This document shows positions 1-20,607 of a stretch of 32,000 nucleotides of DNA, piece after piece. The translations under genes and the position numbers were made by a program. The stretch is from Cylindrospermopsis raciborskii Cr2010 (lineage in GTDB: Bacteria; Cyanobacteriota; Cyanobacteriia; Cyanobacteriales; Nostocaceae), in contig NZ_CP065936.1 of NCBI RefSeq assembly GCF_003367075.2, positions 690,001-722,000 of the forward strand, given 5' to 3'. The number at the start of each line of letters is the position of its first letter. Position 1 is the first letter of the stretch. A model generated the notes under the pieces. It saw only the letters and a program-made list of their open reading frames with translations. It was not told where the DNA came from and did not search any database.

Positions 1-293
1 GAGGAGTGAAAAGGTTAGGGATAGATGAAATAGCCTTGGTCAAAGGACAAGGAAACTATTTAGCAGTATTGGTAGATTTAGATACTCGAAAACCTATCGA
101 AATAGTGAAAACAAGAAGGATAGAAGATATACGTGAAGTCCTTACAGGGTGGGGATTAGAGGCACTGGAGCAAATACAAGAAGTGAGTATTGATATGTGG
201 TCTCCTTACAAAAGTTTGGTAGAAGAATTAATGCCCAATGCTAATATAACAGCAGATAGATTTCATGTAATGAAACAGGTAAATGATGAATTA
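1..293 (+). pseudogene. ISL3-family transposase, central fragment, broken at 293/294 by an IS insertion
   Basis: The frame is open from the window edge. GIDEIALVKGQGNYLAVLVDLDTRKPIEIV...SIDMWSPYKSLVEE...ADRFHVMKQVNDEL is the conserved DDE core region of ISL3 transposases. Confidence 0.8.
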
Positions 294-1434
294 GACATCT
301 CCGGAAATAGCCAAAGCGTTACCAATACTACTTTTTAAGGTGAGACACCCCAATACAAAAGTAGCTAGCTGGTATGTTAAAATAAGCGTTAGAGATGCCT
401 CTTGTTGGGAATTAACCAAAAGATAACACCTATCTGAGATAATTTATTTTTAGCCAAGTCCAAATCTTGATAACTAAAATAAGTAGGTTCCCATTCGGAA
501 ACGAACAAGTCCACAAATAGTCATGATTACCTGTTCATACTTACTTGAATTTAATCGAAATCTTTCTTGTGCCACTCTGAATATTTTCACTACACGAATT
601 AAATGTTCAACAAAAATTCGTTCGGAAGCTAACTCTTTATTTTTTTCTTTTTGTTCAGACGTTAATTCTTGGTTTTTAGGTTTTTTTGTCGGAGTTTTCA
701 TTAACTCCTCTCCTTGATAAGCTTTATCACCACTAAATTTTTGTTTTTTATCAAATATATTTCTGGTTTCACGGAATAAATTTACATCACTTTTTGGACC
801 AGGTTTACCCGCTACTACATCAACAATATCTTTACCATTTGGTAAAACGATTAGTTGACTTTTTCTAGTATGACAGGCTTTTTTACCTGAATAATATTTT
901 TTTTGTTCTTGGTACTCTCCAGGTCTGTCTATAGGCTGTTCATAGCTATCCACTATTAACTCAAATTCTGTTAATATTTCTTTAACGACTTCGTAATCAC
1001 TGGAGTTTTTTTTTACCTGTTCTAGCAAACTTGGTGGCAATAATTCTCCTATTATTGGCAACCAATAGTTAAAGATATCATTTGCAGTTGTTTCACTTAC
1101 TCCAAATTGAATACCTAGTAGCTGAAATGTTGTTAACTGCCGTAAATATGTTAATGTTAAGATTATTTGCTCCGACGGTGATAATTTGGGTTTGCGCCCT
1201 CCACCGCCTTGAATAATTCGGGTTTTTTTTGATTCAACCAATTGTTGTTTCTGATGATGCAGTTTTATGGCTTTTTCCAAAAGTTGCTGTAACTGCTCAT
1301 ACTTCAGACCCAATAAACGGTGTGATTCGTGAGGATTATTCTGGATATATTCAGATATGTTGCTCATAATAAGTTGCCAAAAATACCATTTCATATTATT
1401 TTATCACACTTTGATTCTTTTTCGGAGATGTCTA
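294..1434 (-). mobile_element. IS5/PIF-Harbinger-like insertion sequence (about 1.14 kb) inserted into the ISL3 transposase gene
   Basis: Terminal inverted repeats are GACATCTCCG at 294-303 and CGGAGATGTC at 1423-1432, extendable to TAGACATCTCCG. The element is flanked by TA (292-293 and 1433-1434) or TTA (291-293 and 1435-1437). Removing it restores an in-frame ISL3 ORF (..VNDEL(L)DNMRK..). Confidence 0.85.
474..1394 (-). CDS. DDE transposase (HTH_Tnp_4 + DDE_Tnp_4 type; IS5/Harbinger-like)
   Basis: 306-aa ORF. An N-terminal HTH region is followed by DDE-type motifs: LIVDSYEQPIDRP, YYSGKK..H, GKPGPKSDVNLF, FSGDKAYQG and RIFVEHLIRVVKIF. It fills the element bounded by the inverted repeats. 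Confidence 0.85.
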   Translation of the reverse strand: MKWYFWQLIMSNISEYIQNNPHESHRLLGLKYEQLQQLLEKAIKLHHQKQQLVESKKTRIIQGGGGRKPKLSPSEQIILTLTYLRQLTTFQLLGIQFGVSETTANDIFNYWLPIIGELLPPSLLEQVKKNSSDYEVVKEILTEFELIVDSYEQPIDRPGEYQEQKKYYSGKKACHTRKSQLIVLPNGKDIVDVVAGKPGPKSDVNLFRETRNIFDKKQKFSGDKAYQGEELMKTPTKKPKNQELTSEQKEKNKELASERIFVEHLIRVVKIFRVAQERFRLNSSKYEQVIMTICGLVRFRMGTYLF

Positions 1435-1926
1435 TTAGATAATATGCGTAAAACAGAGAAGAAAGCAGCAACATCTTTACCAAATGAATCAGGAAAAAAG
1501 AGAATATTAGCTGGATTAAATAAAAGTAAATATAGCCTAATTAAAAATGAAGACTCACTCAACGAAGAGCTAAAAGAACGTTTAAAATCAGTCCAGTCAG
1601 TTTCTCCCACTCTAGCCAAGATGCACTCCTTAAAAGAAAAATTCAGAGAAATCTTTGAACTCTCCACAAATTGGGGAGACAGCATCATTGATTTATTAGA
1701 TTGGATGCACGATGCCAAGTCTTTTTTCCCAAAAACTATTGGGACTATGATTAGATGGTTTGGAGAAATAGTCGGTTATTTTGATGGCAGAACTACGAGT
1801 GGTACTGTGGAAGGTATTAATAATAAACTCAAGTTGATTAAACGACTGGGATATGGATTTCGTAACTTCAACAATTTTCGTTTACGCAGTTTATTACACT
1901 GGCACTTTTCTATTAATTCTCCATAA
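1435..1926 (+). pseudogene. ISL3-family transposase, C-terminal fragment
   Basis: ..LDWMHDAKSFFPKTIGTMIRWFGEIVGYFDGRTTSGTVEGINNKLKLIKRLGYGFRNFNNFRLRSLL is the typical ISL3 transposase C-terminus (TSG.VEG.NNK.K..KR..YGFRN). The annotated Met at 1357 lies inside the inserted IS and is an artefact. Confidence 0.85.
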
Positions 1927-1981
1927 AACAGGCGCAAGAACCAATTAGTCTAAAGTCCAAGTCTTTACCCATGTATCAAAT

Positions 1982-4900
1982 TCAAACTATTCTTTCTATT
2001 ACAACATAGGTAGAAAATTTGACACAATACTTGCCGCCTTTTTTGACCAAAAAATTCATACCCATGTCAAAGATGACCTTATATTCCTTGTCATCTTTAA
2101 GGTGGATTTTTAGAGTACGTCCGTGAGGAACTTCATAACGTTTACAAGATGGTTTTACATCCACTTTTAAATTATCCTTGTTACCTTGAAGTCGAGAAAA
2201 AACTTTTGTCAAATCGTGCTGGAGATTGTTAGTTTCATCATCATTAGCAGTTACAATATTTACAATAGATTGGTCATCGAAATTGCTTACTTGCAAGAGG
2301 TCAACAAGAATTTCAGAACCAGGCACCTTCAAGTAGCGATCAGAATAAACAACCTTTGACACCATACTTCCCAATAAAACCGCCTCTATTCCGAGTTTTT
2401 TTCTTAATTCTGATATGCTGAAATCATTGCGCCACTCTCTTTCAGAAGGATTTATAGAAATCACAGTAGTATTTGGGTCTTCAAACTCAGAAGTTTCAAC
2501 TATTCTTGCTTGAGAACGTAAATTTTCTAAGCGAGTAAAAACTGTTGCGACCCCTTCTCTACTTCGCGTTTGAAACCATACAGACGGTTTACCTTTTGCA
2601 GACAGATGTAATGAGAATGCAGTGCCGTTGTTTTTGTTATAATTTAAACATAGAGTTGGACCCGACTCAACAGGGGACTGATAAAGTTTTACTAAACCTT
2701 GGTCTATCCACTCCTGTAAGCGTTTTTGCCATACTTTTAGGTGACTCTGCTTGTTTAACTTTACGTTCTCATCATATAGTGGTAACTTATTAACAATTAG
2801 TTCCAGGGGTTTGTTATGAAGTTTAAGTGAATAAACTACAGTTGTAATTAGATTTAACCAAGATAATGTTGAACCGTTATTCAAACCATATTCATCCGTT
2901 AGTTGTGGCAAATAAATTAGGGTATCTGGTGCAACCGTTCGGCAAAGCGTAGGTAGGTTATCGGCCATTAAAGATAAAGTAACTCGATTGGCATTAGGAG
3001 CAAAGTTTTGCAAATCGGTATCTGGACTTACTTGCTCCACTATAGGCATGAGAAAATCTGCTACTAAGTGGCGGTTTAATTGGGTATGAAATGGCTGGTT
3101 GGAATAAGTTTGCAGACAGTCATAACAACTGGTTTCACAAGTACAGGATACAACAATTTTCAGTGCCATTTTCAAAACTTCATCAAAACATTCAGCAATT
3201 CGGCGACTATATCCTGCTCCCCCCGGAACATCGTCATAAATAATAATGTTGGCACATCTATCTTTTCGTGGTTCAAATAAACCATTTAATTCGGAGCGAG
3301 GCACATCAATGACTTGAGATGATGCTGCTAACAATGCATAAGTAAGAGAACGCCAAAACTCCAAACCTCGAGTGTGATTTTTGAGATTAGTCATAATTTC
3401 CCCGTCATCTTCGTATTCTCCATCCCCACCAAATAAAGGTATAGGGTTTGTTCTGGCATTAAAAGCTACCTTCAGCAAATCACTGCAAAATTCATGTCCC
3501 AGATGTATAAAAGAGTATCTACCTCTACCTTCACAAAATTTACCTGTAATGGGATGAGTATGAGTATAAGTAATTAGTGATGATTGAGAATTCCTTGAGG
3601 AATTTTTACCAGATCCTTTTTTGCTTTTTTTATTATTATCCCGTTCTTTCCGAACTAAATCACTGAGGTCACGTCCACAGAAATCACAAATTGCAAACCC
3701 CTGCTTATCAAAACCTTTACCATTTCCCAAAGAACCCTGATTTGCTAGGAAAAAATTTCCTCCTTTGCTAACAGTAAGACTGTAAAGTTCTGAAGGGTGA
3801 AGGGTTTCTGAAGTGTCCCCGTCATTGATTAAGAAAATTTGCGATATGGGTTGACGCTGTGGTTTAATGTACGGTGTAACTTTGGGAACATTTTCCCAAT
3901 CAGTTAAAAATGTTTTAGGAATTTTGTAAAGCTTCTTTTTTTTGGCAGCAGATGAAGATGGTTCACGTCTGCAAACCGGACAGTTCTCTACTGGATCATC
4001 TTGTTTATCAGAACGAATAAAATAATTACAGTTCTGACAAACCCAATAATATTTATTTTCTAGTTCTCTGGGTTTGAGAATACCAACACTTTTATAAACT
4101 CGGTCATCAACAACTATTTCCTGATCTGGAGCGTATTCACCAAGTGCAAGACGACGATCTCGTTCTAATCTATGTCTTCCTTCTTTTGGGGAATTATAGA
4201 CATTACTCTCTCCAGTTAAAAGACGAACCACATCAATTGGAAAACCATAAATGGGTAAAATACTGGCTTGTGCTAGTTCATTATGTAGGAGACGATGAGC
4301 AATTTTTTCGATTTCAATCTCCAGGGCTTTAATATGATCCAAAGTCTTCTTCCTATCTTTCCTTTCAGAAGGATCGTTGAAACGCTGTTCCAGCTTGTAT
4401 ATGACTTCAGCTAAACTATCCCAATCTTTTAGTTGTTGCTCCTGAAACTTATCAAGCTCCTGGGCAAATTCATCTATTATTGTGTTAGTTTGGTTTTCTG
4501 AAGCACCTAACCGATTTAACCAAAGTGCAGTGAGACTTGCTACTACATCAGTTCTCAGCCAAGCTTGTAATTTACAAATCATGGCTTCAACAGAAGGAAT
4601 CAATTTTTCAGAAGCAGCTGGATTTTCTCTTGGTAAATCTGGTAAATCCAAAAATTTTGCTATCGTCACTTCTTCAGCACTCAAATTCCAATTGTTTCGC
4701 AAGAAGTCAGCTAATAATTCAGCTCGAATATGACGCTGCTGTATTTGGAAGTTGTCAGAATCGAGCTTGGGAATTTGATTGTTACCAGCAATTAACTGTT
4801 TGGGTTGCTCAAAATAAAAGCGGTCATGGGGACGACGTTGGCCATACATCAATGTAATAGCTACACCATCTGTGCGACGACCAGCACGTCCAGCACGCTG

Positions 4901-7900
4901 TTGGTAATTGTTAACATGGGGAGGAAAGTTACGGAGGACTACTGCTTGCAGTTCACCAATATCCACACCCATTTCTAATGTTGTTGAACAACTTAGCATA
5001 TTGATACGACCTTGGCGAAAACGATTTTCACGTTTTTCTAGTTCCGCAGGGCTAAGTTGTGCTGTATGTTCTTGCGCTCGTAGTGCCAAGGGTGAGTGCT
5101 TTGTGATTAAGTACTTTTGGTAATGTTCAGTTATGGACTGTTCAATTTTTTCAGGAGTATGAGGCTCAAGAGTTCCAGGACATTTATAAGCTGGACATAT
5201 TCGTACCCGCAGTTTAGGGTCAGTAATTTTTACTAAACCTGGAATATGAAAAACCTGCTGACAGCAATTGCATTTGTACCAGTCTTGCTGCGTTTCAATA
5301 ATATTTATTAGGTTCCAGTTAAGTTGAAATCCGTTCCTAGCTTTAACAAGTAAGTCAAACTTTTTAAGTTGTTCGAAAAGCCAGATAAAATGTTCTCTTG
5401 TAGGAAATTTTTCTGGCTCAAATATCTTATAAAAATACCAACCTATACGATTCTGTTTTGAACTAGTTTTACCATCTTGATTCCACCGTGGTAAAAAGAC
5501 TGGATAATTCTTTTTAGAATTTTTATTCTCCGGTGGTTTCTCTAGAAACAAATAATTTTTTGATCTACCTTGAACATCTATCATTTCAGGACGACCACCC
5601 TCAAAACCCCCTGTTTCTGGAAAGTAATTAGATGAACCTTCGATACTGACAATTCCAGTGCGGCGAATAATATCTGTCAAAGCGGTCAATATAATAATAG
5701 CTTCATTGTTAGTTATTGCAAATTTACTTGCAACCAATTCAATCAGGTTATTGTCTAAGTCTATATGACAAGTTAACAGTGCAAACGCTTCTAGAGTTAA
5801 ACGACGATTAAAAGGGAGAGCAAATTCTCTAACTAATATTTCTTTGGCACGTTTCTCAGCTAAAGTTTCTGCATCTATTTTGTTTTTTCTATCTTTCTGT
5901 TCGTCCTCTGGATCCATAGGACGATAGCTTGTGTAATTCAAATCTGATTTTCTGTCAGGATGAGGGATAGAAACTTCTAGAAATTTTCCTTTCAGTTCAT
6001 TAATTACTTGAGTAACAGATGTGACACCCTCATCATTCTTGATTCTTCGAAATGCTCGCCAAAGCATCTGACGATACACTATTTCAGTATGGGTACGTTG
6101 ATAATCTGAAGCAAAAAATGCTGCATCCTGACGACCATCAGAAAAAGTTAACAATTTCCGCTTTGAGGAGTTGTTTCCAATCTTTTCTGGTTCAGGTAGT
6201 AACTCAAAGAGACTATCAAGCATTGCTTCTAATGCTCCATCAGTATAAGTTACAAAGCGGTTAATTGCTAAATTAGTTCGTCCAATGCCAGCACCACAAG
6301 CCGCACATCTATTTAAATAACACCCATCCTGATTTTTATCATCATTTTTACGATGCCATGCTAGATATAATTCATTTTCAGATCGTTCTTTTGGTGCAAA
6401 TTCTTCATTTGATACTTTACCAATCCAGCCATTCTTTTGTAGTTCAAATTTAAAAGTTTTTATGGTTGGTTGTTGATATTCTTCATCCTCATCAATTTCA
6501 TCTTCCTCTGTTATACTGTCTAAATTGCCTGATGTTAATGTATAAATTTTGGTATTTTCCTTCAATGCTTGAATCGCTCTAGGTAAAGATTGCAATTCTC
6601 CAGAATCTTGACGCTGTGTAAATACATAAGCTTGACCGCATTGAGAACAACTGCCCAATTCTAATACGGGGGAAGCACAGCATTCACAAATCTTCTTATC
6701 ATTCAAATAAAGTTGCCCATATCGGACTTGACGCTCTGGATAATCTGGATGGCGCACTACTCCCAAACATTCAGGATTAATACAGGCATAAAGTCCTTCC
6801 AAGCTACGAAATAAAAGATGCAATCTTACTGGTAACAAAGGTAAATCGTCTGGATTCTCACGAGCCAAAGTACCTAATCGAAGTAGGTTAGCTAAAGCTA
6901 CTTTGGCATCGATATCATCAACATTTCCATCTAATTTAATTGGTAAATCTATACCCCATAATTCTTGAGAGCAGACAATTTGCTCCCAAGGTTGAGGGTC
7001 AGTGATCAGTATCTTAATCAGTCGTTGTATTACAGGATGTTGCTTAAGAACTAACCATAGAAATTTGTGGATTTTCCAGCTATGTTCTTTTAATGGCAAT
7101 CCTGCTGCAAGTTGTAAATGTGCTGCTTGTAATTCTTGCTCAGGTACAATAGCACTAAGTTGGTCATACCATTGATTTATTGGAGCATTAATTTCTGGTA
7201 TTTCCAGAATGCTTAAATACTGTAAAATATCTTCACTAATTACTTCATGAGGTAGATTATAAGGATTACCTAATCGGGCTTCAGCAGTGAGACGCTGACC
7301 CCGAATTACTTGACCAAAAGATTCACCAAAAAGTTCTTTTGCAAATTCCAAAACTTGCTTATCAACTGACTCATCCCCTAGGCTAGCACTAGTGGCAATG
7401 CAACGAATTTTACCTTTTTCATTGACTCCTACGGAAGCTTTAAAACGTTCTATAAGCATGGAAACTTCACTACCGGTTGCACCATTATAGGTGTGAGCTT
7501 CGTCTACTACTAACATTTTGAAAATATTTTCCGAAGCATTAAAAATATCTTTTCGCTCCTTCGGGCGAATTAACATATGTTCCAGCATTGAATAGTTAGT
7601 AATCAAAATATGAGGCGGTGAATCCCATATTTCTTGCCGTGATATTAGTTGTACCTGGGTAGTTTTCTCAATAGCTTTGTCAATTAATTCATCTTCTTTT
7701 ACGGATTCTTTTTCATTCTGGTCAAATAATTGCCATAGTTCTTTGGGATCATAAGCCTCAAATTCTTCCCTGATAGATTCTATTGCTTTTTGTTTATCTT
7801 TCTTAGTACGGCTGGTATAAAATCCAAATTTAATTTTGGCTATCTTTTGACGACATAATAGCTGTCGTAACCGTTTAACTTGGTCATTGACCAAAGCGTT

Positions 7901-8353
7901 CATTGGGTATAAAATTAATATGCGAACCCCAGCTAAGGATAAGTTATCTTCTTCCTTCAACAAAGTATTAAGCATAGGTATAATGAAACACTCTGTTTTC
8001 CCTGAACCTGTACCAGTAGCAACGACTATATTTTGCTGGTGTTCGAGAACGGCAAGGATAGCTTTTTCTTGATGTTCGTACAATCGACGATTACTGGGTG
8101 TAAATAGTGTTGCCATCTCAGGATGTAAAACACCTTCGGTAACTAACTGTTCAACACTGCGACTTGAACAATAAGGCTGAGAACCTTCAAGGTAAGGGTG
8201 TTGCCATAGATTTCCTGGTTGCTCTAGTAGCTGTTTGAAGCCATGGCGTAAGTGCGGGTCACGGAGGGGATAGTTTGTGAGTAGGTAGCGGATGAAGTCC
8301 TCACGGGTTTTTTCAACTGCTGCTTTTGGATCTAGATCTAGATATTTAGTCAT
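1982..8353 (-). CDS. Giant SF2 DEAH-box helicase with a zinc-ribbon-rich insertion, a DUF1998/MrfA-type Zn module and a 349-aa unknown C-terminal extension (DruE/DrmAB-like)
   Basis: 2,123-aa ORF. Motifs seen: Walker A ATGTGSGKTECF (about 7994-8020); YPMNALVNDQ; DEAH box VVDEAHTY (about 7492-7515); ATSASL; RecA2 motifs LSCSTTLEMGVDIG and QQRAGRAGRR (about 4871-4907). DUF1998 hallmarks are WVCQNC..CPVCRR, IIYDDVPGGAGYS and CTCETSCYDCL (about 3085-4050). Confidence 0.9.
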   Translation of the reverse strand: MTKYLDLDPKAAVEKTREDFIRYLLTNYPLRDPHLRHGFKQLLEQPGNLWQHPYLEGSQPYCSSRSVEQLVTEGVLHPEMATLFTPSNRRLYEHQEKAILAVLEHQQNIVVATGTGSGKTECFIIPMLNTLLKEEDNLSLAGVRILILYPMNALVNDQVKRLRQLLCRQKIAKIKFGFYTSRTKKDKQKAIESIREEFEAYDPKELWQLFDQNEKESVKEDELIDKAIEKTTQVQLISRQEIWDSPPHILITNYSMLEHMLIRPKERKDIFNASENIFKMLVVDEAHTYNGATGSEVSMLIERFKASVGVNEKGKIRCIATSASLGDESVDKQVLEFAKELFGESFGQVIRGQRLTAEARLGNPYNLPHEVISEDILQYLSILEIPEINAPINQWYDQLSAIVPEQELQAAHLQLAAGLPLKEHSWKIHKFLWLVLKQHPVIQRLIKILITDPQPWEQIVCSQELWGIDLPIKLDGNVDDIDAKVALANLLRLGTLARENPDDLPLLPVRLHLLFRSLEGLYACINPECLGVVRHPDYPERQVRYGQLYLNDKKICECCASPVLELGSCSQCGQAYVFTQRQDSGELQSLPRAIQALKENTKIYTLTSGNLDSITEEDEIDEDEEYQQPTIKTFKFELQKNGWIGKVSNEEFAPKERSENELYLAWHRKNDDKNQDGCYLNRCAACGAGIGRTNLAINRFVTYTDGALEAMLDSLFELLPEPEKIGNNSSKRKLLTFSDGRQDAAFFASDYQRTHTEIVYRQMLWRAFRRIKNDEGVTSVTQVINELKGKFLEVSIPHPDRKSDLNYTSYRPMDPEDEQKDRKNKIDAETLAEKRAKEILVREFALPFNRRLTLEAFALLTCHIDLDNNLIELVASKFAITNNEAIIILTALTDIIRRTGIVSIEGSSNYFPETGGFEGGRPEMIDVQGRSKNYLFLEKPPENKNSKKNYPVFLPRWNQDGKTSSKQNRIGWYFYKIFEPEKFPTREHFIWLFEQLKKFDLLVKARNGFQLNWNLINIIETQQDWYKCNCCQQVFHIPGLVKITDPKLRVRICPAYKCPGTLEPHTPEKIEQSITEHYQKYLITKHSPLALRAQEHTAQLSPAELEKRENRFRQGRINMLSCSTTLEMGVDIGELQAVVLRNFPPHVNNYQQRAGRAGRRTDGVAITLMYGQRRPHDRFYFEQPKQLIAGNNQIPKLDSDNFQIQQRHIRAELLADFLRNNWNLSAEEVTIAKFLDLPDLPRENPAASEKLIPSVEAMICKLQAWLRTDVVASLTALWLNRLGASENQTNTIIDEFAQELDKFQEQQLKDWDSLAEVIYKLEQRFNDPSERKDRKKTLDHIKALEIEIEKIAHRLLHNELAQASILPIYGFPIDVVRLLTGESNVYNSPKEGRHRLERDRRLALGEYAPDQEIVVDDRVYKSVGILKPRELENKYYWVCQNCNYFIRSDKQDDPVENCPVCRREPSSSAAKKKKLYKIPKTFLTDWENVPKVTPYIKPQRQPISQIFLINDGDTSETLHPSELYSLTVSKGGNFFLANQGSLGNGKGFDKQGFAICDFCGRDLSDLVRKERDNNKKSKKGSGKNSSRNSQSSLITYTHTHPITGKFCEGRGRYSFIHLGHEFCSDLLKVAFNARTNPIPLFGGDGEYEDDGEIMTNLKNHTRGLEFWRSLTYALLAASSQVIDVPRSELNGLFEPRKDRCANIIIYDDVPGGAGYSRRIAECFDEVLKMALKIVVSCTCETSCYDCLQTYSNQPFHTQLNRHLVADFLMPIVEQVSPDTDLQNFAPNANRVTLSLMADNLPTLCRTVAPDTLIYLPQLTDEYGLNNGSTLSWLNLITTVVYSLKLHNKPLELIVNKLPLYDENVKLNKQSHLKVWQKRLQEWIDQGLVKLYQSPVESGPTLCLNYNKNNGTAFSLHLSAKGKPSVWFQTRSREGVATVFTRLENLRSQARIVETSEFEDPNTTVISINPSEREWRNDFSISELRKKLGIEAVLLGSMVSKVVYSDRYLKVPGSEILVDLLQVSNFDDQSIVNIVTANDDETNNLQHDLTKVFSRLQGNKDNLKVDVKPSCKRYEVPHGRTLKIHLKDDKEYKVIFDMGMNFLVKKGGKYCVKFSTYVVIERIV

Positions 8354-8451
8354 ACTGATAACTGTTGAATATTAAAAAATCTGGAATAAAATTTGCCTAA
8401 AATATGTTACGACTTGACTTGAGCAATCTATATCAATCACTCATTATACGT

Positions 8452-8480
8452 ATTATACACTCATTTCCGAAAATTGTCAA
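8452..8480 (-). promoter_or_regulatory. Consensus sigma70-type promoter directed at the helicase gene
   Basis: The minus strand reads TTGACA (8480-8475), a 17-nt spacer, then TATAAT (8457-8452), a perfect match to both hexamers with optimal spacing. It lies about 100 nt upstream of the ATG at 8353, within the 219-bp gap after the 304-aa gene. Confidence 0.55.
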
Positions 8481-8572
8481 GGTATAATGTTGAGATTTTC
8501 ACCTTTGATAGGACTACTATAACTCAATATGTAAATATGTGAAGTTTCGTAACAATGTTTGACATTTCTGAG

Positions 8573-9487
8573 TCATACTAATTTAGCTCCTAAACGTTGA
8601 AATACTTCTTTAACAAGCAACCAGTTTTTTGATTCAAAATTTCGGGTTCTGTATTCTTCGCCAGCAGGTTGAGAAATATCCCATAACCATCGTTCATAGT
8701 TACTGGGGAGATAAATACTCTTCAACTTCAGTCTTCCAGCTGGTTCATCCCAACTTATTTTCAAAGGATACCCCATTTGTTGGTCCTGGTAAAACATGGC
8801 TAAAATAGCTAAATCTGGTTCTAATTCATAAAAAGTTTGGTCTTGAAACCAAATATATTCTCCCGTTGGTAAGCGTAATATATCTTCATTTTTAATACCT
8901 TCATAACTAAGATTCCGCCAGCGGTCTTTTTGTGGTGCATCACAGGGTGCATACAGCTGGATTTGCCAGTTTTTGAGGAAAAACGGATCTTCTGTCCAAG
9001 TGGAACGCAATTCGGATTTCAATGGTTTTCGAGGTTTTTGTAAATAATCTAGGCTATCTGAAATGATTAGCAAAGAAATACCGACTTGAGACAAGCGATA
9101 TTTAATTCTATTAAAATGCTTGTTTTTCGGCCGCAATATCAGAGGCTTTTGAGGATTTTGTTGACTGTCTAGTACTTTGTGCGCCAGAGTCAAATAAGCG
9201 CGATCGCCTCTAAATAACAAAGTTGTTAAATCTTCTCGATTTTTGGCTAAAACAGTGGGTAAAGCCATGCAGTAAAAGTTTCGTTTTCCTGCGACCACTT
9301 CTCCTTCAGATTCCAACTGTTTGAGAGCATTTTGGATTTGAGTTATCAGATTATCTTGAGATTCATTGGGAGAAATACTCGTGCCTAATAATGAAATGAT
9401 TTGATGTTTGGTTAAAGGCAATGGCATCTTCAAATTTTTTGGATTACGATGATTACTTAGCAATCTAGTGATTTTTTCAGTTAACAT
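8573..9487 (-). CDS. Hypothetical protein (304 aa), middle gene of the helicase cluster; possible N-terminal winged-helix
   Basis: The ATG at 9487 lies 4 nt after the stop of the upstream 993-aa ORF, suggesting translational coupling. No catalytic motif was recognised. The N-terminal LTKHQIISLLG...LKQLESEGEVVAGKRNFY is wHTH-like, a weak call. Confidence 0.65.
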   Translation of the reverse strand: MLTEKITRLLSNHRNPKNLKMPLPLTKHQIISLLGTSISPNESQDNLITQIQNALKQLESEGEVVAGKRNFYCMALPTVLAKNREDLTTLLFRGDRAYLTLAHKVLDSQQNPQKPLILRPKNKHFNRIKYRLSQVGISLLIISDSLDYLQKPRKPLKSELRSTWTEDPFFLKNWQIQLYAPCDAPQKDRWRNLSYEGIKNEDILRLPTGEYIWFQDQTFYELEPDLAILAMFYQDQQMGYPLKISWDEPAGRLKLKSIYLPSNYERWLWDISQPAGEEYRTRNFESKNWLLVKEVFQRLGAKLV

Positions 9488-9491
9488 AGTT

Positions 9492-12473
9492 TTAATATTT
9501 GTTCATTTGTTCAGCAGCTTTTTGGGACAAAGGTTTAATATTTTTCACGTATTCCAATGATTGAATACAAGTCTCAATCTGCATCTGTCCTGCGTTCTTG
9601 CATTCCAACAATATGAAATTTTCATACGGTTCTTCTGGAAGTTTAATACTTGATATTTTATCTCTTAATTCGTATTTATCAATTCTTTTTTCTATTAATT
9701 TCTTAACAAACTCACGTTTTTGGCTACTAGTCAATGTTATTAATAACCATTTTCTCGATGTATTAATTGAAGGAGAATTTTGGGCTTGTAATAAATTATT
9801 GTTAACCGCCTTTTGTTGTTGTGTACTCTTAATTTTCATATCGGTTTTTAAGGTGTCAAGAAGAGCTTGTAGCTTTTGAATCAGGGAATGATTATTTAAC
9901 CATTCAGGAAAGTAACTGTTATGAAAATCATTAATTATGTTTTCTAAAAATTGATAGTCATAATCAAATTTTTCCGCAGCTTTTATAAAATCATCATCAG
10001 ATTCATTATCCAGAATGGTATAGCAGTAATTTTCTAAATCGTAATTTTCTAAATCGTCATTTTCCAAAGCTTCATCTGGTAAATCATATTGATTGCTACC
10101 ACACCACCAACCTAGATTATGACGTTTTTTTAGTGAATCAAATAGCTGAATGTGATAAATCCCCGGTGGTAGTTTTAATGGAATAGTAATTGTCTTTTCA
10201 TTTGACGAAATAAGTGGAACTTGAATTTTTAATGGCCGATTTTCAGGCAAAAGTAAATTCCAACATGAAAGAAAATAATTTTCATGAGAAAATAAACCAG
10301 ATACCTTAACTTCCTGATTATCCCCAACCCAGCTAATTGATAAAGGAGTAGTTTGCATTTCAATTAAAGGTTCTATTTTACCACCTAACCGCTGGTAACC
10401 TAAAGCATAAAAATCTGAGTCAGATGATAATGAATCATATAAATGTGCTAAGCTTAACAATAAATTGCCTGACAGATCTGCTTGAAATTGAGAAAATACG
10501 GTTTCTAGTTTGTCTCCTAGGGATAAACTGATGATTTCTAGAGGAAAAAGTCCCTCTATTTTAACTTCCTCTGCCCAGAATTTGGTACTGGAATCTGTTA
10601 TAATAGGTAACTTTTGTAACCTATATTGTGAACTACTGCTGATTAATAGATCAATATTATTTACCTCATCATTGATTTGATATTGTTCTTGAATTTCAAA
10701 CTTGTATGACCAGCGATTTAATCGGTTTAATTGCTCCCATAATCTGACTTCATATTTTCCTGGTTTATTAATCAATTTATTCAGAATAATTGGTTCCCAA
10801 CTATTATTTGGAAGGATATTTTGGCGTTGCATAATAGTTTGCTGTTCAGCGATATTTTCTATAGAAATATTTAAAGATATTTCTCTCTCTACGGGTGGAT
10901 AAAAGATACTAGGAATCTCTATATAAACTGATTTTTTACCTTTTAGTTTTAATCCTATTAATCTCGGTTGCTCTTCAAGGGACTCCACCCAGGTAATTAG
11001 AATGTTGTGAGTATTTTTAGCATGGAAATCAATTGATGATTGCTTAGTTATGAGTTTTAGATGTTGACCTCGCCATTCCGTTATACTAGAGGGCACACAA
11101 GAGTCTAAAATTTCAATACCTTCATCAAGCTCTATGTGCATACATTTAGGAGTAAAGAAAATAATTTCTTGGATTCCTCTGATGGTAAAGTCATCAGATT
11201 CCAGATTTAGGCGATCACCTGTGAATGCGTTAAATACAACGTAAGGTAACTTATTAGCTATACCCTCAAGCTTCCACTCATTCAAACATTTATGGTTATG
11301 GTCTAAGAGTTGCCATATCCAACATTCGGCTACTTTTTTGATATCTACAACCTTTTCGGGAATCATTAGTTTCCCCTTTGAGGGAATACTACCTTCCCAT
11401 GTTGCTTCTGGAATTTGGCAAAAAGTTCCACCTAATTTGTCCCATTCCTTCTTCCAAATATTTTGTTCTGGTAGCACTAACTGTATATTTAATGAGTCAT
11501 TAATATCTAAAACTAGAGATAAAGCTTTTGGACGACAATTAAAAATTCTACGACTACTTCCCTGACGACTGTGACGGGGAGTTAAAACTTGAATTAAACT
11601 ATCCCAATTTCTTAAAAAGAAATTGTTTGGTAAGTAATAATTGCCTAACAATTTTTCACGTTCGTTATCATTTTTGATTTCTTTAGGTAATGTTCCTTGA
11701 CGTTCTAGTTCAACAGCAATAATAGCAATACCTTGAAGTAGTTGCCCAGAGATTGGTTCAGCTTCTTTTTGTTCTTGATCTGAACAACTAACTTTAAGGA
11801 AATTAATCAGAGTACGCCATTCACGATGCTTAAGTTCACAAAAATTCAGCAATTCCTCGGAAATATCTTCATAGCAAGTATGAGCAATTTCCCACCATCC
11901 ATATTCGTTTGAAAATTCCTGAACAAGACAGGAAAAATGGCTGATATTTCGTTGAGGAATACCACTTTGCAACCATAAGGTTGATACATAGCGATATCCT
12001 CCTTTGGCTTGGACAAGACCAAGCAACTCAAACCCTTCACCAACAATTTCACGAAGTGAATTTTCTATTTTATCCGTATGGCGTAGTTTGAGTTTTTCGC
12101 AAAAACCATGCCAAAACCCTCTTTCAATACCAGAATCAGTTTCAAAGCCAGAATAATAGTAGGCATATTCCGATAAAGCAAAAGTCAGAATTTTTAGCCA
12201 GTTCCGCTCCGGTTCAGGAAACCTCTCATGGATTCTTTCGTAGGAAATTGAACCTGAACCTATTCTTCGTAAATTGTAACCTACAACACTTAATACTTTA
12301 TCCGTGTCTTCTTGATTAATCCGAACACTACCTAAAAAACGTTGCCCATCTGGAAGATTCTGATGAGACCAACATGAAGAAATCTGCTGCCAAAGTCGTT
12401 GTGTGTCTTCTGGCACAGAGAAGTTAAATGGTACATGGAAGTTAAAGGTAGTCATTATTGAGTAGATAAACAA
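9492..12473 (-). CDS. Hypothetical large protein (993 aa from TTG 12473; 987 aa from the more likely ATG at 12455), first gene of the helicase cluster
   Basis: Long uninterrupted ORF co-oriented with the helicase. No NTPase, nuclease or methyltransferase motif was recognised by eye. It contains an acidic LENDD-LENYD-LENYC pentapeptide repeat encoded by a 15-bp tandem repeat at 10026-10070. Confidence 0.7.
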   Translation of the reverse strand: MFIYSIMTTFNFHVPFNFSVPEDTQRLWQQISSCWSHQNLPDGQRFLGSVRINQEDTDKVLSVVGYNLRRIGSGSISYERIHERFPEPERNWLKILTFALSEYAYYYSGFETDSGIERGFWHGFCEKLKLRHTDKIENSLREIVGEGFELLGLVQAKGGYRYVSTLWLQSGIPQRNISHFSCLVQEFSNEYGWWEIAHTCYEDISEELLNFCELKHREWRTLINFLKVSCSDQEQKEAEPISGQLLQGIAIIAVELERQGTLPKEIKNDNEREKLLGNYYLPNNFFLRNWDSLIQVLTPRHSRQGSSRRIFNCRPKALSLVLDINDSLNIQLVLPEQNIWKKEWDKLGGTFCQIPEATWEGSIPSKGKLMIPEKVVDIKKVAECWIWQLLDHNHKCLNEWKLEGIANKLPYVVFNAFTGDRLNLESDDFTIRGIQEIIFFTPKCMHIELDEGIEILDSCVPSSITEWRGQHLKLITKQSSIDFHAKNTHNILITWVESLEEQPRLIGLKLKGKKSVYIEIPSIFYPPVEREISLNISIENIAEQQTIMQRQNILPNNSWEPIILNKLINKPGKYEVRLWEQLNRLNRWSYKFEIQEQYQINDEVNNIDLLISSSSQYRLQKLPIITDSSTKFWAEEVKIEGLFPLEIISLSLGDKLETVFSQFQADLSGNLLLSLAHLYDSLSSDSDFYALGYQRLGGKIEPLIEMQTTPLSISWVGDNQEVKVSGLFSHENYFLSCWNLLLPENRPLKIQVPLISSNEKTITIPLKLPPGIYHIQLFDSLKKRHNLGWWCGSNQYDLPDEALENDDLENYDLENYCYTILDNESDDDFIKAAEKFDYDYQFLENIINDFHNSYFPEWLNNHSLIQKLQALLDTLKTDMKIKSTQQQKAVNNNLLQAQNSPSINTSRKWLLITLTSSQKREFVKKLIEKRIDKYELRDKISSIKLPEEPYENFILLECKNAGQMQIETCIQSLEYVKNIKPLSQKAAEQMNKY

Positions 12474-20031: not shown

Positions 20032-20607
20032 ATGACACCCTTAATTCTAAATAACTCGGAAACAATACCCATTACCCATGAACAATTCTATGAACTTTGT
20101 GTCGCCAACCGTGACCTGCAACTGGAGCGAACTGCTCAAGGGAACCTAATTATTATGCCACCTACAGGAGCGGAAACCAGTAGGCGTAATTCAGATATTA
20201 ACCTGGAGTTGGGCCTATGGAATAGACAAACAAAATTAGGGATAACTTTTGATTCATCTGGCGGTTTTAGCCTTCCTAATGGAGCAGATTTTTCTCCCGA
20301 TGCAGCTTGGATACCTTTGGAAAGATGGCAAGCTCTAACTGCAGAACAAAAAACCAGATTTTTGCCCATGTCTCCTGATTTTGTGATTGAACTATGTTCT
20401 CCCAGTGATTCTTTGAAACCTCTGCAAGCTAAAATGCAGGAGTATATAAATAATGGAACCCGCTTAGGTTGGTTAATTAACCCAAAAAACCGCCAAGCCG
20501 AAATTTATCGCCCAGGAGAAGAAAAACAAGTTTTGGAAAACCCATCCACCTTATCAGGAGAAGATGTTTTACCGGGATTTGTTTTAAATCTTGAGTCAAT
20601 CTGGTAG
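20032..20607 (+). CDS. Uma2-family (DUF820) restriction-endonuclease-like protein
   Basis: GNLIIMPPTGAETSRRN, PDAAWIPLERW, PDFVIELCSPSD and GWLINP..AEIYRPG form the PD-(D/E)xK-like Uma2 pattern that is abundant in cyanobacteria. Confidence 0.85.
   Translation: MTPLILNNSETIPITHEQFYELCVANRDLQLERTAQGNLIIMPPTGAETSRRNSDINLELGLWNRQTKLGITFDSSGGFSLPNGADFSPDAAWIPLERWQALTAEQKTRFLPMSPDFVIELCSPSDSLKPLQAKMQEYINNGTRLGWLINPKNRQAEIYRPGEEKQVLENPSTLSGEDVLPGFVLNLESIW

What the first reader, a model, noticed from the sequence alone, without database searches (positions are those of the whole stretch)
1982..12473. IS-flanked three-gene candidate defence system built around a 2,123-aa DEAH/DUF1998 helicase (Druantia-III-like, with an extra gene)
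**Seen in the sequence.** Three co-oriented minus-strand genes (993 aa, then 304 aa 4 nt downstream, then 2,123 aa) fill 10.5 kb between an IS nest and housekeeping genes. The last gene combines an SF2 DEAH helicase with a DUF1998/MrfA-type zinc module. The first two proteins show no enzymatic motif I can recognise. There is no methyltransferase, PLD or SNF2 gene in the cluster.

**Established knowledge.** Giant helicase+DUF1998 proteins are the signature of Druantia (DruE) and DISARM (DrmA/DrmB). Druantia type III is a two-gene DruH+DruE system whose mechanism is still unclear.

**Inference.** This is either a cyanobacterial Druantia-III variant that has gained a 304-aa component, or a distinct system that reuses a DruE-like motor with new partners. 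I cannot verify that the 993-aa protein is a DruH homologue.
Basis: partly seen in the sequence, partly recalled or inferred. Interest (0 to 1): 0.9.

Follow-up and report, generated by a model that had tools for sequence, protein, structure and literature searches.

The report
Cyanobacterial three-gene Druantia defence variant
This is a conserved cyanobacterial three-gene cassette built on the known anti-phage helicase-nuclease DruE; its two "unknown" partners are very divergent relatives of known Druantia proteins (DruD, well supported; DruH, tentative), so it is an undescribed combination of known parts, not a wholly new system.

Summary
The three minus-strand genes sit exactly where reported (993, 304 and 2,123 aa). 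The 2,123-aa protein is a bona fide DruE (PADLOC E 1.8e-230). It has intact Walker A, DEAH and MZB Cys motifs, and a fused C-terminal PLD-like pocket shared with E. coli type III-A DruE.

The triad occurs in the same order and strand in every complete locus I examined (33 of 34 initial loci, plus others). All are cyanobacterial. Five are on plasmids and the flanks differ, which fits a mobile defence cassette.

- **304-aa protein.** It has an N-terminal winged helix. It aligns over almost its whole length with verified type I DruD (hhalign score 38.5; column-shuffle null 15.2±2.5; z 9.4).
- **993-aa protein.** Its predicted architecture matches that published for DruH: α-helical N-domain, an Ig-like array, then a C-domain. 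The sequence link to DruH is marginal. Three of 42 family members hit one PADLOC DruH model (best E 7e-5), and profile-profile alignment to E. coli-type DruH is not above the null.
- **No match** to DruA, B, C, F, G, L or M.

Verdict: this is a Druantia-family system with a composition (DruH-like + DruD-like + PLD-bearing DruE) not listed among types I–IV or III-A/B. It is a new variant of a known kind. No function was tested.

The parts
9492..12473 (-). Gene A: 993-aa (probably 987-aa, from the ATG at 12455) DruH-like protein. It has an α-helical N-domain (~1-300), an Ig/FN3-like β-sandwich array (~310-785), and a C-terminal α plus small α/β domain (~790-987).
   Evidence: ORF. AF2 model has pLDDT 80. 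Foldseek hits tandem Ig/FN3/MG-domain arrays at E 2e-8. The family has 179 clusters, all cyanobacterial where named. Three of 42 members hit PADLOC DruH model PDLC00038, best E 7.1e-5, ending at the invariant YVSTLWLQSGIPQ motif.
8573..9487 (-). Gene B: 304-aa DruD-like protein with an N-terminal winged helix (~1-80) and a C-terminal DruD-like domain (~186-304).
   Evidence: AF2 model has pLDDT 91. Foldseek matches only the winged helix, weakly. hhalign against 7 verified DruD sequences scores 38.5, E 1.8e-4; the shuffle null is 15.2±2.5 with a maximum of 23.5. An expanded profile aligns B 26-304 with DruD 58-339.
1982..8353 (-). druE: 2,123-aa YprA/MrfA-family SF2 helicase-nuclease.
   Evidence: PADLOC DruE1 1.8e-230 and DruE3 7e-217. 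Pfam DEAD, Helicase_C and MZB. PDB DruE 9tu7 at E 8e-90.
7994..8014 (-). Walker A motif GTGSGKT (aa 114-120) of DruE.
   Evidence: Read from the translation. Present in all 33 clade DruE ORFs checked.
7493..7504 (-). DEAH motif (aa 284-287) of DruE.
   Evidence: Read from the translation. Present in all 33 clade DruE ORFs checked.
3113..3343 (-). MZB/DUF1998 zinc module (aa 1671-1747), including the Cys cluster SCTCETSCYDC.
   Evidence: Pfam PF09369 at E 4.6e-17; sequence.
1985..2986 (-). C-terminal PLD-like region of DruE (aa ~1790-2123), carrying YxDRYL, PHxRxL and FDxG.
   Evidence: Aligned with E. coli III-A DruE. PADLOC DruE3 model is covered to position 2012 of 2055. By motif pattern these correspond to the published PaDruE pocket residues D1917/R1918/Y1919 and H1999/R2001. 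YxDRY and FDxG are present in 28 of 33 clade ORFs; PHxRxL matched in 23.
8452..8480 (-). Consensus σ70-type promoter match (TTGACA-17-TATAAT, 12/12) in the 219-nt spacer upstream of druE.
   Evidence: Pattern scan only. Most relatives lack this spacer; there B and druE overlap.

Best explanation
The cluster is a cyanobacteria-restricted subtype of the Druantia anti-phage/anti-MGE family with three obligate components.

**Shown here.**
- DruE is intact (ATPase motifs, MZB Zn module, PLD-like pocket).
- The A-B-E order is strictly conserved, with overlapping or near-overlapping genes.
- The cassette moves between chromosomal and plasmid contexts.
- B is a remote DruD homologue.

**Inferred by analogy with the 2026 type III studies.**
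- The DruH-like protein A recognises ssDNA-containing or forked replication intermediates of an invader. It does this through its α-helical N-domain or its Ig-array/C-domain interface.
- A then recruits DruE through its C-terminal domain.
- DruE is released from an autoinhibited state, translocates 3'→5' and degrades DNA with its PLD-like domain.

**Inferred for B.** The winged-helix DruD-like protein is a third subunit, either a DNA-binding adaptor or a regulator coupling A to DruE. DruD has no known function in type I either.
For: **DruE identity.** PADLOC DruE1 E 1.8e-230 and DruE3 E 7e-217. Pfam DEAD/Helicase_C/MZB. PDB DruE 9tu7 at E 8e-90. Walker A and DEAH are present in all 33 clade ORFs; the PLD motifs YxDRY and FDxG in 28 of 33.

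**Operon conservation.** A-B-E are in the same order and strand in 33 of 34 loci; the exception is cut by a contig end. The same holds for the most distant B relatives.

**Mobility.** The cassette is on 5 cyanobacterial plasmids. Flanks differ between loci: phycobilisome genes, MobA/ParA, toxin-antitoxin genes.

**B ≈ DruD.**
- 7 of 39 members hit PADLOC DruD1.
- The B-family HMM ranks P. putida DruD first among 14 type I proteins.
- hhalign scores 38.5 against a null of 15.2±2.5, z 9.4.
- The alignment is collinear over ~250 columns and includes the winged-helix motif.
- The DruD reference sequences were verified by PADLOC at E ≤1e-116.

**A ≈ DruH.**
- Predicted α-domain + Ig array + C-domain matches the cryo-EM description of DruH.
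- It occupies the same position upstream of druE.
- Three members hit DruH model PDLC00038 over ~125 N-terminal residues, best E 7.1e-5.

**Mechanistic template.** Preprints read.
Against: - No experiment exists on this clade, so defence is inferred from family membership and context.
- The window's own A and B proteins hit no PADLOC, Pfam or NCBIfam model.
- The A-family profile against E. coli-type DruH is not above the shuffle null: 20.1 versus 17.2±3.0.
- The A profile does not find the solved DruH 9tud or the C. butyricum partner.
- hhalign probability for B-DruD is only 40-49%.
- In this window the neighbours on the non-IS side are housekeeping genes, not a defence island.
- The published type III studies disagree on what DruH does: ssDNA binder inhibited by ATP versus 3'-5' exonuclease.
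- A few clade members carry a DruE without the PLD region.
Confidence: 0.7

Rival explanations
1. This is ordinary type III (or III-B) Druantia. A is simply a fast-evolving DruH, and B is a dispensable accessory or hitch-hiking gene, not a system component.
For: A has the DruH architecture and position. DruE has the III-A-like PLD pocket. Some clade members lose the PLD region, as described for the 'type III-like' branch.
Against: B is present between A and druE in every complete locus, down to 41% identity, usually with overlapping stop and start codons. B-family proteins were found only in this context, with 49 representatives among 1.84 billion proteins. B is homologous to a bona fide Druantia component, DruD.
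Confidence: 0.1
2. This is a distinct DruE-based system whose large partner A is not a DruH homologue at all. The Ig-array architecture would be convergent or unrelated, and A would have a sensing mechanism of its own.
For: The window protein hits no DruH HMM. Precomputed Pfam annotation of 120 family members never lists the DruH families PF27205 or PF27201, which mark true DruH. The profile-profile score is within the null. 41 of 120 members carry a ~450-aa N-terminal coiled coil that was absent from the DruH sequences examined.
Against: Among 5,027 PADLOC models, the only recurrent hit for the family is DruH. The hits fall at collinear N-terminal positions and end on the family's most conserved motif. 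The three-part architecture, size and gene position are the same. DruH subfamilies are themselves mutually undetectable by HMM: the E. coli-type profile misses the C. butyricum partner.
Confidence: 0.17
3. This is a housekeeping or plasmid-maintenance function: MrfA/Lhr-like DNA repair, or chromosome/plasmid partition as the source annotations 'ParA' and 'chromosome segregation ATPase-like' suggest.
For: Sources name some A homologues ParA or segregation ATPase. Some loci are next to ParA/CbiA genes on plasmids. The window's neighbours are housekeeping genes.
Against: A has no P-loop or ATPase domain in any library; the names most likely follow the coiled-coil extensions. The helicase scores 767 bits on DruE models but 125 bits, against a cutoff of 874, on the closest NCBIfam helicase model. 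Distribution is patchy, with plasmid carriage and different flanks in each genome. No MrfB-like partner is present.
Confidence: 0.03

Closest known systems
Druantia type III (III-A, E. coli/P. aeruginosa DruH-DruE; PDB DruE 9tu7, DruH 9tud)
   Same: The signature DruE has a SF2 core, MZB module and C-terminal PLD-like pocket motifs. A ~1,000-aa partner sits immediately upstream with an α-domain + Ig-array + C-domain architecture. The cassette is compact and lacks a methyltransferase.
   Different: DruE is only ~25-28% identical to E. coli III-A DruE and forms its own clade. The partner is not recognised by DruH HMMs or Pfam families, apart from a marginal hit in 3 of 42 relatives. A third obligate gene (B) lies between the partner and druE. 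The system is restricted to cyanobacteria.
Druantia type I (DruABCDE; 'Type IV CoCoNuT' of Bell et al. 2025)
   Same: It contains a DruD-family protein directly upstream of druE. The helicase core is marginally closest to type I DruE (31-33% identity, weak NJ sister grouping, best PADLOC model DruE1).
   Different: There is no DruA, DruB or DruC. DruE ends in a PLD-like region rather than the inactivated Vsr domain described for types I and II.
Nitrosococcus watsonii pNWAT01 type I variant (DruA + 955-aa unknown + DruD + DruE)
   Same: The layout of a '~1,000-aa unannotated protein, then DruD, then DruE' is the same.
   Different: It carries DruA. Its 955-aa protein shows no detectable similarity to A, DruH, DruB or DruC. 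Its DruD is a canonical PADLOC DruD.
Druantia type IV (DruL-DruF-DruE, PADLOC 2021)
   Same: It is a three-gene DruE system without a methyltransferase.
   Different: A, B and 81 family members hit no DruF or DruL model. DruE4 is the weakest of the DruE subtypes on the helicase, at 491 bits.
DISARM / ARMADA (other YprA-family defence systems)
   Same: The helicase is YprA/MrfA-family with the DUF1998 module.
   Different: The helicase/DUF1998 pair is not split. There is no DrmC, BrxHII-like helicase or PglX-like methyltransferase. DrmA models score only ~45-48 bits.

Membership tests
Druantia (any type) | DruE: a ~1,800-2,100-aa YprA-family SF2 helicase with the DUF1998/MZB module, recognised by DruE HMMs | tested here: met
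   PADLOC DruE1 at 1.8e-230 and DruE3 at 7e-217. Pfam DEAD, Helicase_C and MZB.
Druantia (any type) | Protects against phage infection | not testable with these tools
   No experiment on this clade was found in the searchable literature.
Druantia type III | DruH (YjiT / STY4851 family) recognised by sequence models | tested here: not met
   The window protein has no PADLOC hit even at E ≤10. None of 120 homologues carries PF27205 or PF27201. Only 3 of 42 relatives hit DruH model PDLC00038, at 7e-5 to 3e-3. hhalign to E. coli-type DruH is within the null.
Druantia type III | Partner with DruH architecture: α-helical N-domain, about six Ig-like domains, C-terminal domain | tested here: inconclusive
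   The AF2 secondary structure and Foldseek Ig-array hits agree with this architecture.
Druantia type III | Two-gene composition (druH + druE only) | tested here: not met
   A third gene lies between them in all complete loci.
Druantia type III-A | DruE with C-terminal PLD-like domains and a conserved pocket | tested here: met
   YxDRYL, PHxRxL and FDxG are invariant with E. coli III-A DruE. The PADLOC DruE3 model aligns through profile position 2012 of 2055.
Druantia type I | DruA (DUF4338), DruB and DruC present | tested here: not met
   No such genes are in the cassette. The A profile shows nothing against DruB or DruC alignments. There are no PADLOC hits.
Druantia type I | DruD present upstream of druE | tested here: met
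   The homology is remote: hhalign 38.5, E 1.8e-4, z 9.4 against shuffles, collinear over ~250 columns. HMM hits are weak (E ≥0.0024), so B is a relative of DruD, not a canonical member.
Druantia types II / IV | DruM, DruF and DruG (type II), or DruF and DruL (type IV) | tested here: not met
   No PADLOC hit for A, B or their 81 family members at E ≤1.
DISARM | Split DrmA/DrmB, DrmC (PLD), and a methyltransferase | tested here: not met
   The helicase-MZB protein is a single polypeptide. DrmA models score only 45-48 bits. No methyltransferase ORF is present.
MrfA/YprA repair helicases | ~750-aa helicase, conserved core-genome context or an MrfB partner | tested here: not met
   The protein is 2,123 aa and matches YprA 6znp only over aa 1099-1226. 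It is plasmid-borne with variable contexts.

The most novel reading that the evidence does not exclude
The triad is a genuinely undescribed Druantia subtype. In it a DruD-family winged-helix protein is an obligate third subunit working with a DruH-type sensor and a PLD-bearing DruE. That would show that accessory proteins thought to be subtype-specific (DruD for type I, DruH for type III) can be shared and recombined. It would also give DruD, whose function is unknown, a minimal three-protein setting in which to be studied.
Probability: 0.55. Interest if true: 0.6.

Novelty: new variant of a known kind. Interest (0 to 1): 0.55.

Why it matters
Current descriptions hold that DruE is the only protein shared between Druantia subtypes and that DruH is specific to type III. 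A clade that combines a DruD relative with a DruH-like partner and a III-A-like PLD-bearing DruE would link types I and III in evolution.

It would also offer a compact system for asking what DruD does. And it would extend a mechanistically topical defence family (four mechanistic preprints in May 2026) into cyanobacteria. There, PADLOC v2.0.0 does not recognise either partner, so annotation built on these models would probably report only an orphan DruE.

The claim is limited. It is a subtype-level variant, not a new principle of immunity.

Tried and rejected
- **A+B as a split DruH.** Tested whether B corresponds to the DruH C-terminus. hhalign of the B profile against DruH found nothing. 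Rejected.
- **A as fused DruB+DruC.** The Nitrosococcus 955-aa gene suggested this. There is no similarity to DruB or DruC alignments, and that 955-aa protein is itself not DruB/C-like.
- **A versus E. coli-type DruH.** BLASTP, HMM and hhalign were tried. The best local alignment (A 114-261 with DruH 88-227) pairs 'YVSTLWLQSGIP' with 'FLGSLFSEGGLP'. Its score lies within the column-shuffle null, and global mode fails.
- **A-family profile and P0114 against PDB sequences,** including DruH 9tud. No hit.
- **B fold against PDB with Foldseek.** Only the ~70-residue winged helix matches (Stn1, RPA2, Zα; E ≥0.06). No McrC-like or nuclease fold was seen.
- **Supplementary Table S1 of Bell et al.** It is truncated in the held copy, so the published clade label of cyanobacterial DruE could not be read.
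- **Flanking direct or inverted repeats** that would mark an insertion. None were convincing.
- **E. coli and Allomeiothermus plasmid hits** that I took as possible type I loci. They carry a helicase–methyltransferase–DEAD/DEAH-helicase layout that fits ARMADA.
Full report
**Observation.**
The first ORF starts at TTG, and the ATG at 12455 giving 987 aa is likelier. Four nt separate the first two genes and 219 nt separate the last two.

On one side lies an IS nest: an ISL3 transposase ORF split by a DDE_Tnp_4 element. On the other side a 764-bp spacer is followed by HAD hydrolase, EamA, CN-hydrolase and class II FBA genes. Further on come Psb27 and other housekeeping genes. The cassette is therefore IS-bounded on one side only, and this window does not show a defence island.

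**The helicase is DruE.**
- PADLOC gives DruE1 at 1.8e-230 (best over the N-half) and DruE3 at 7e-217 (best over the C-half, to profile position 2012 of 2055).
- Pfam gives DEAD, Helicase_C and the MrfA Zn-binding domain.
- The closest solved chains are DruE 9tu7 (E 8e-90) and a 1,970-aa helicase, 9wae. YprA 6znp matches only aa 1099-1226.
- Walker A (aa 114-120), DEAH (284-287), QRAGRAGR and the MZB cysteines are intact.
- The C-terminal ~330 residues align with the PLD-like region of E. coli III-A DruE. YxDRYL, PHxRxL and FDxG are invariant. By motif pattern these are the D1917/R1918/Y1919 and H1999/R2001 pocket residues described for P. aeruginosa DruE.

**Where this DruE sits.** I built a neighbour-joining tree on 1,003 ungapped columns. 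The cyanobacterial DruEs form their own clade. They are 31-33% identical to type I DruE and to a C. butyricum compact DruE, and 28% identical to E. coli III-A. The sister grouping with type I is weak. tblastn against 72,556 plasmids shows a sharp drop in identity: 53-70% on five cyanobacterial plasmids, then ≤36% for everything else.

**The triad is a unit.**
- The 993-aa family (A) has 179 clusters and the 304-aa family (B) has 65. Every source that names an organism names a cyanobacterium.
- An exhaustive profile search of 1.84 billion representatives finds only 49 B-family proteins. Nearly all are stand-alone proteins of ~300 aa.
- A genome scan with the B profile returned 30 loci. With four earlier loci, tblastn shows A, B and DruE in the same order and strand in 33 of 34. 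The exception is cut by a contig end.
- The most distant B relatives (E 1e-17 to 1e-27) sit in the same arrangement.
- Contexts differ. They include phycobilisome/OCP genes in Coleofasciculus, plasmids with MobA/ParA or other helicases, and PsbH/PsbN on one side with PIN/HigB on the other in Scytonema.

This pattern fits a horizontally moving cassette. It argues against a core repair function.

**Protein B is a DruD relative.**
- The AF2 model is confident (pLDDT 91). It shows an N-terminal winged helix and a mixed α/β remainder with no significant PDB match.
- The window protein hits no library. When all 39 aligned members were scanned against PADLOC, the most recurrent family was DruD1, in 7 members with best E 0.0024.
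- I collected type I Druantia loci from plasmids (Ralstonia, Nitrosococcus, P. putida) and four metagenome contigs. I confirmed three of their DruD proteins, covering both PADLOC DruD subfamilies, at E ≤1e-116.
- hhalign of the B profile against the 7-sequence DruD alignment scores 38.5 (E 1.8e-4, probability 49%) over B 186-303 and DruD 203-335.
- 150 column-shuffled controls give 15.2±2.5 with a maximum of 23.5, so z is 9.4. The reversed profile scores 13.9.
- With 25 more divergent B members added, the alignment extends collinearly over ~250 columns (B 26-304, DruD 58-339). It includes the winged-helix motif L..L...G[ED][IL]V....[YW]...PP.

I conclude that B is a remote DruD homologue. No function for DruD was found in the literature I could search.

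**Protein A is DruH-like, but homology is not established.**
- The AF2 model (pLDDT 80) has an all-α N-domain (~1-300), a β-region (~310-785), and a C-terminal α plus small α/β region.
- Foldseek aligns the β-region to tandem Ig/FN3/MG arrays at E down to 2e-8.
- Two 2026 cryo-EM studies describe DruH in these terms: N-terminal domain, six Ig-like domains, C-terminal domain.
- On sequence the link is marginal. Three of 42 family members hit one DruH model (PDLC00038) at E 7.1e-5, 7e-4 and 3e-3, always at collinear N-terminal positions. Each hit ends at, or within a few residues of, the end of the family's invariant motif YVSTLWLQSGIPQqNLxHF.
- hhalign against an E. coli-type DruH alignment picks the same region, but its score is within the shuffle null.
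- The solved DruH 9tud is not detected.
- DruH-type partners are hard to link by sequence in general. The E. coli-type profile misses the 1,069-aa partner of the C. butyricum DruE, and no PADLOC DruH model hits it either.
- A shows nothing against DruB or DruC, and B shows nothing against DruH.
- 41 of the 120 listed A homologues are ≥1,200 aa. In the one I examined (Coleofasciculus P0020) the extra ~450 aa is an N-terminal extension with coiled-coil-type Pfam hits, which probably explains the 'ParA/segregation ATPase' names some sources give the family.

**Classification.** The types I could find in the literature are:
- I: DruABCDE
- II: DruMFGE
- III-A and III-B: DruHE
- IV: DruL-DruF-DruE

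.

The cassette matches none of them. It lacks DruA/B/C and M/F/G/L. It has three genes. It pairs a DruD relative with a DruH-like protein and a PLD-bearing DruE. [quoted passage not shown] I found no description of this composition, or of cyanobacterial Druantia, in the searchable literature. However, the table that would give the published clade label of these DruEs is truncated in the held copy. Within the clade, four intact-looking loci (L019, L027, L049, L050) have a 1,550-1,790-aa DruE without the PLD region. This resembles what Bell et al. say of their 'type III-like' branch.

**Mechanism (inferred).** By analogy with type III, A would sense ssDNA-containing or forked invader DNA and recruit DruE through its C-terminal domain. 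DruE would then translocate 3'→5' and degrade DNA through its PLD-like domain. B would act as a DNA-binding adaptor or regulator.

- Shown here: the domain and motif content, the operon conservation, the mobility, and the B-DruD relationship.
- Not shown: any activity, any protein-protein contact, or any protection.

**Verdict.** This is a real, conserved Druantia-family cassette with an apparently unlisted composition. It is a new variant of a known kind. The 'extra gene' is a DruD relative, not a novelty. An interest of about 0.55 is more appropriate than 0.9.

Noticed in passing
window 8354-8572 (promoter match 8452-8480, minus strand): The 219-nt spacer between gene B and druE carries a perfect σ70 consensus (TTGACA-17-TATAAT). 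In most relatives B and druE overlap, so this locus may have gained an internal druE promoter, or an insertion.
   Followed up: partly
window 6-1926: IS nest. An ISL3-family transposase ORF is split into 6-338 and 1357-1926 by a DDE_Tnp_4/IS5-like element (474-1394, opposite strand) bounded by 25-nt inverted repeats at 283-307 and 1419-1443. The nest ends 55 nt from the druE stop codon.
   Followed up: partly
L002 (Pseudanabaena sp. ABRG5-3 plasmid AP017561.1) 3792-8486 and 20056-22886: Next to the triad lies a second, convergent DruE-like gene (at least 1,896 aa; DEAD, YjiV_N, Helicase_C, MZB). There is also a 1,564-aa DEAD/ResIII + UvrD double-helicase fusion.
   Followed up: no
L041 (Nitrosococcus watsonii pNWAT01) 1916-4783: A type I-like operon reads DruA, a 955-aa protein with no PADLOC hit and no similarity to DruB, DruC, DruH or protein A, then canonical DruD and DruE. 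This may be another unlisted Druantia layout with the same 'large unknown + DruD + DruE' order.
   Followed up: partly
L039 (Clostridium butyricum pNPD4_2) 5795-9004: A 1,069-aa protein overlapping a compact 1,559-aa DruE looks like a III-B-type pair. It is not recognised by any PADLOC DruH model or by the E. coli-type DruH profile.
   Followed up: partly
L001 1676-5914 and 41 of 120 proteins: Long forms of protein A (1,200-1,450 aa). In P0020 the extra ~450 aa is an N-terminal extension with coiled-coil-type Pfam hits. Sources annotate several family members as 'ParA' or 'chromosome segregation ATPase-like', although no ATPase domain is detected.
   Followed up: partly
L019, L027, L049, L050: In these loci DruE is 1,550-1,790 aa and lacks the PLD-like C-terminus. 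In L049 and L050 (long-read metagenome contigs) gene A also appears fragmented, from either decay or assembly frameshifts.
   Followed up: no
L029 and L034: MAG contigs labelled 'uncultured Xanthomonas sp.' and 'Acetobacteraceae bacterium' carry the cyanobacterial-type cassette (B 45% and 71% identical). They are probably mis-binned contigs, not evidence of spread outside cyanobacteria.
   Followed up: no
window 20032-20607: A Uma2-family (PF05685, 'putative restriction endonuclease') gene, common in cyanobacteria, lies among otherwise housekeeping genes (response regulator, PPTase, GT2, radical SAM, Psb27).
   Followed up: no
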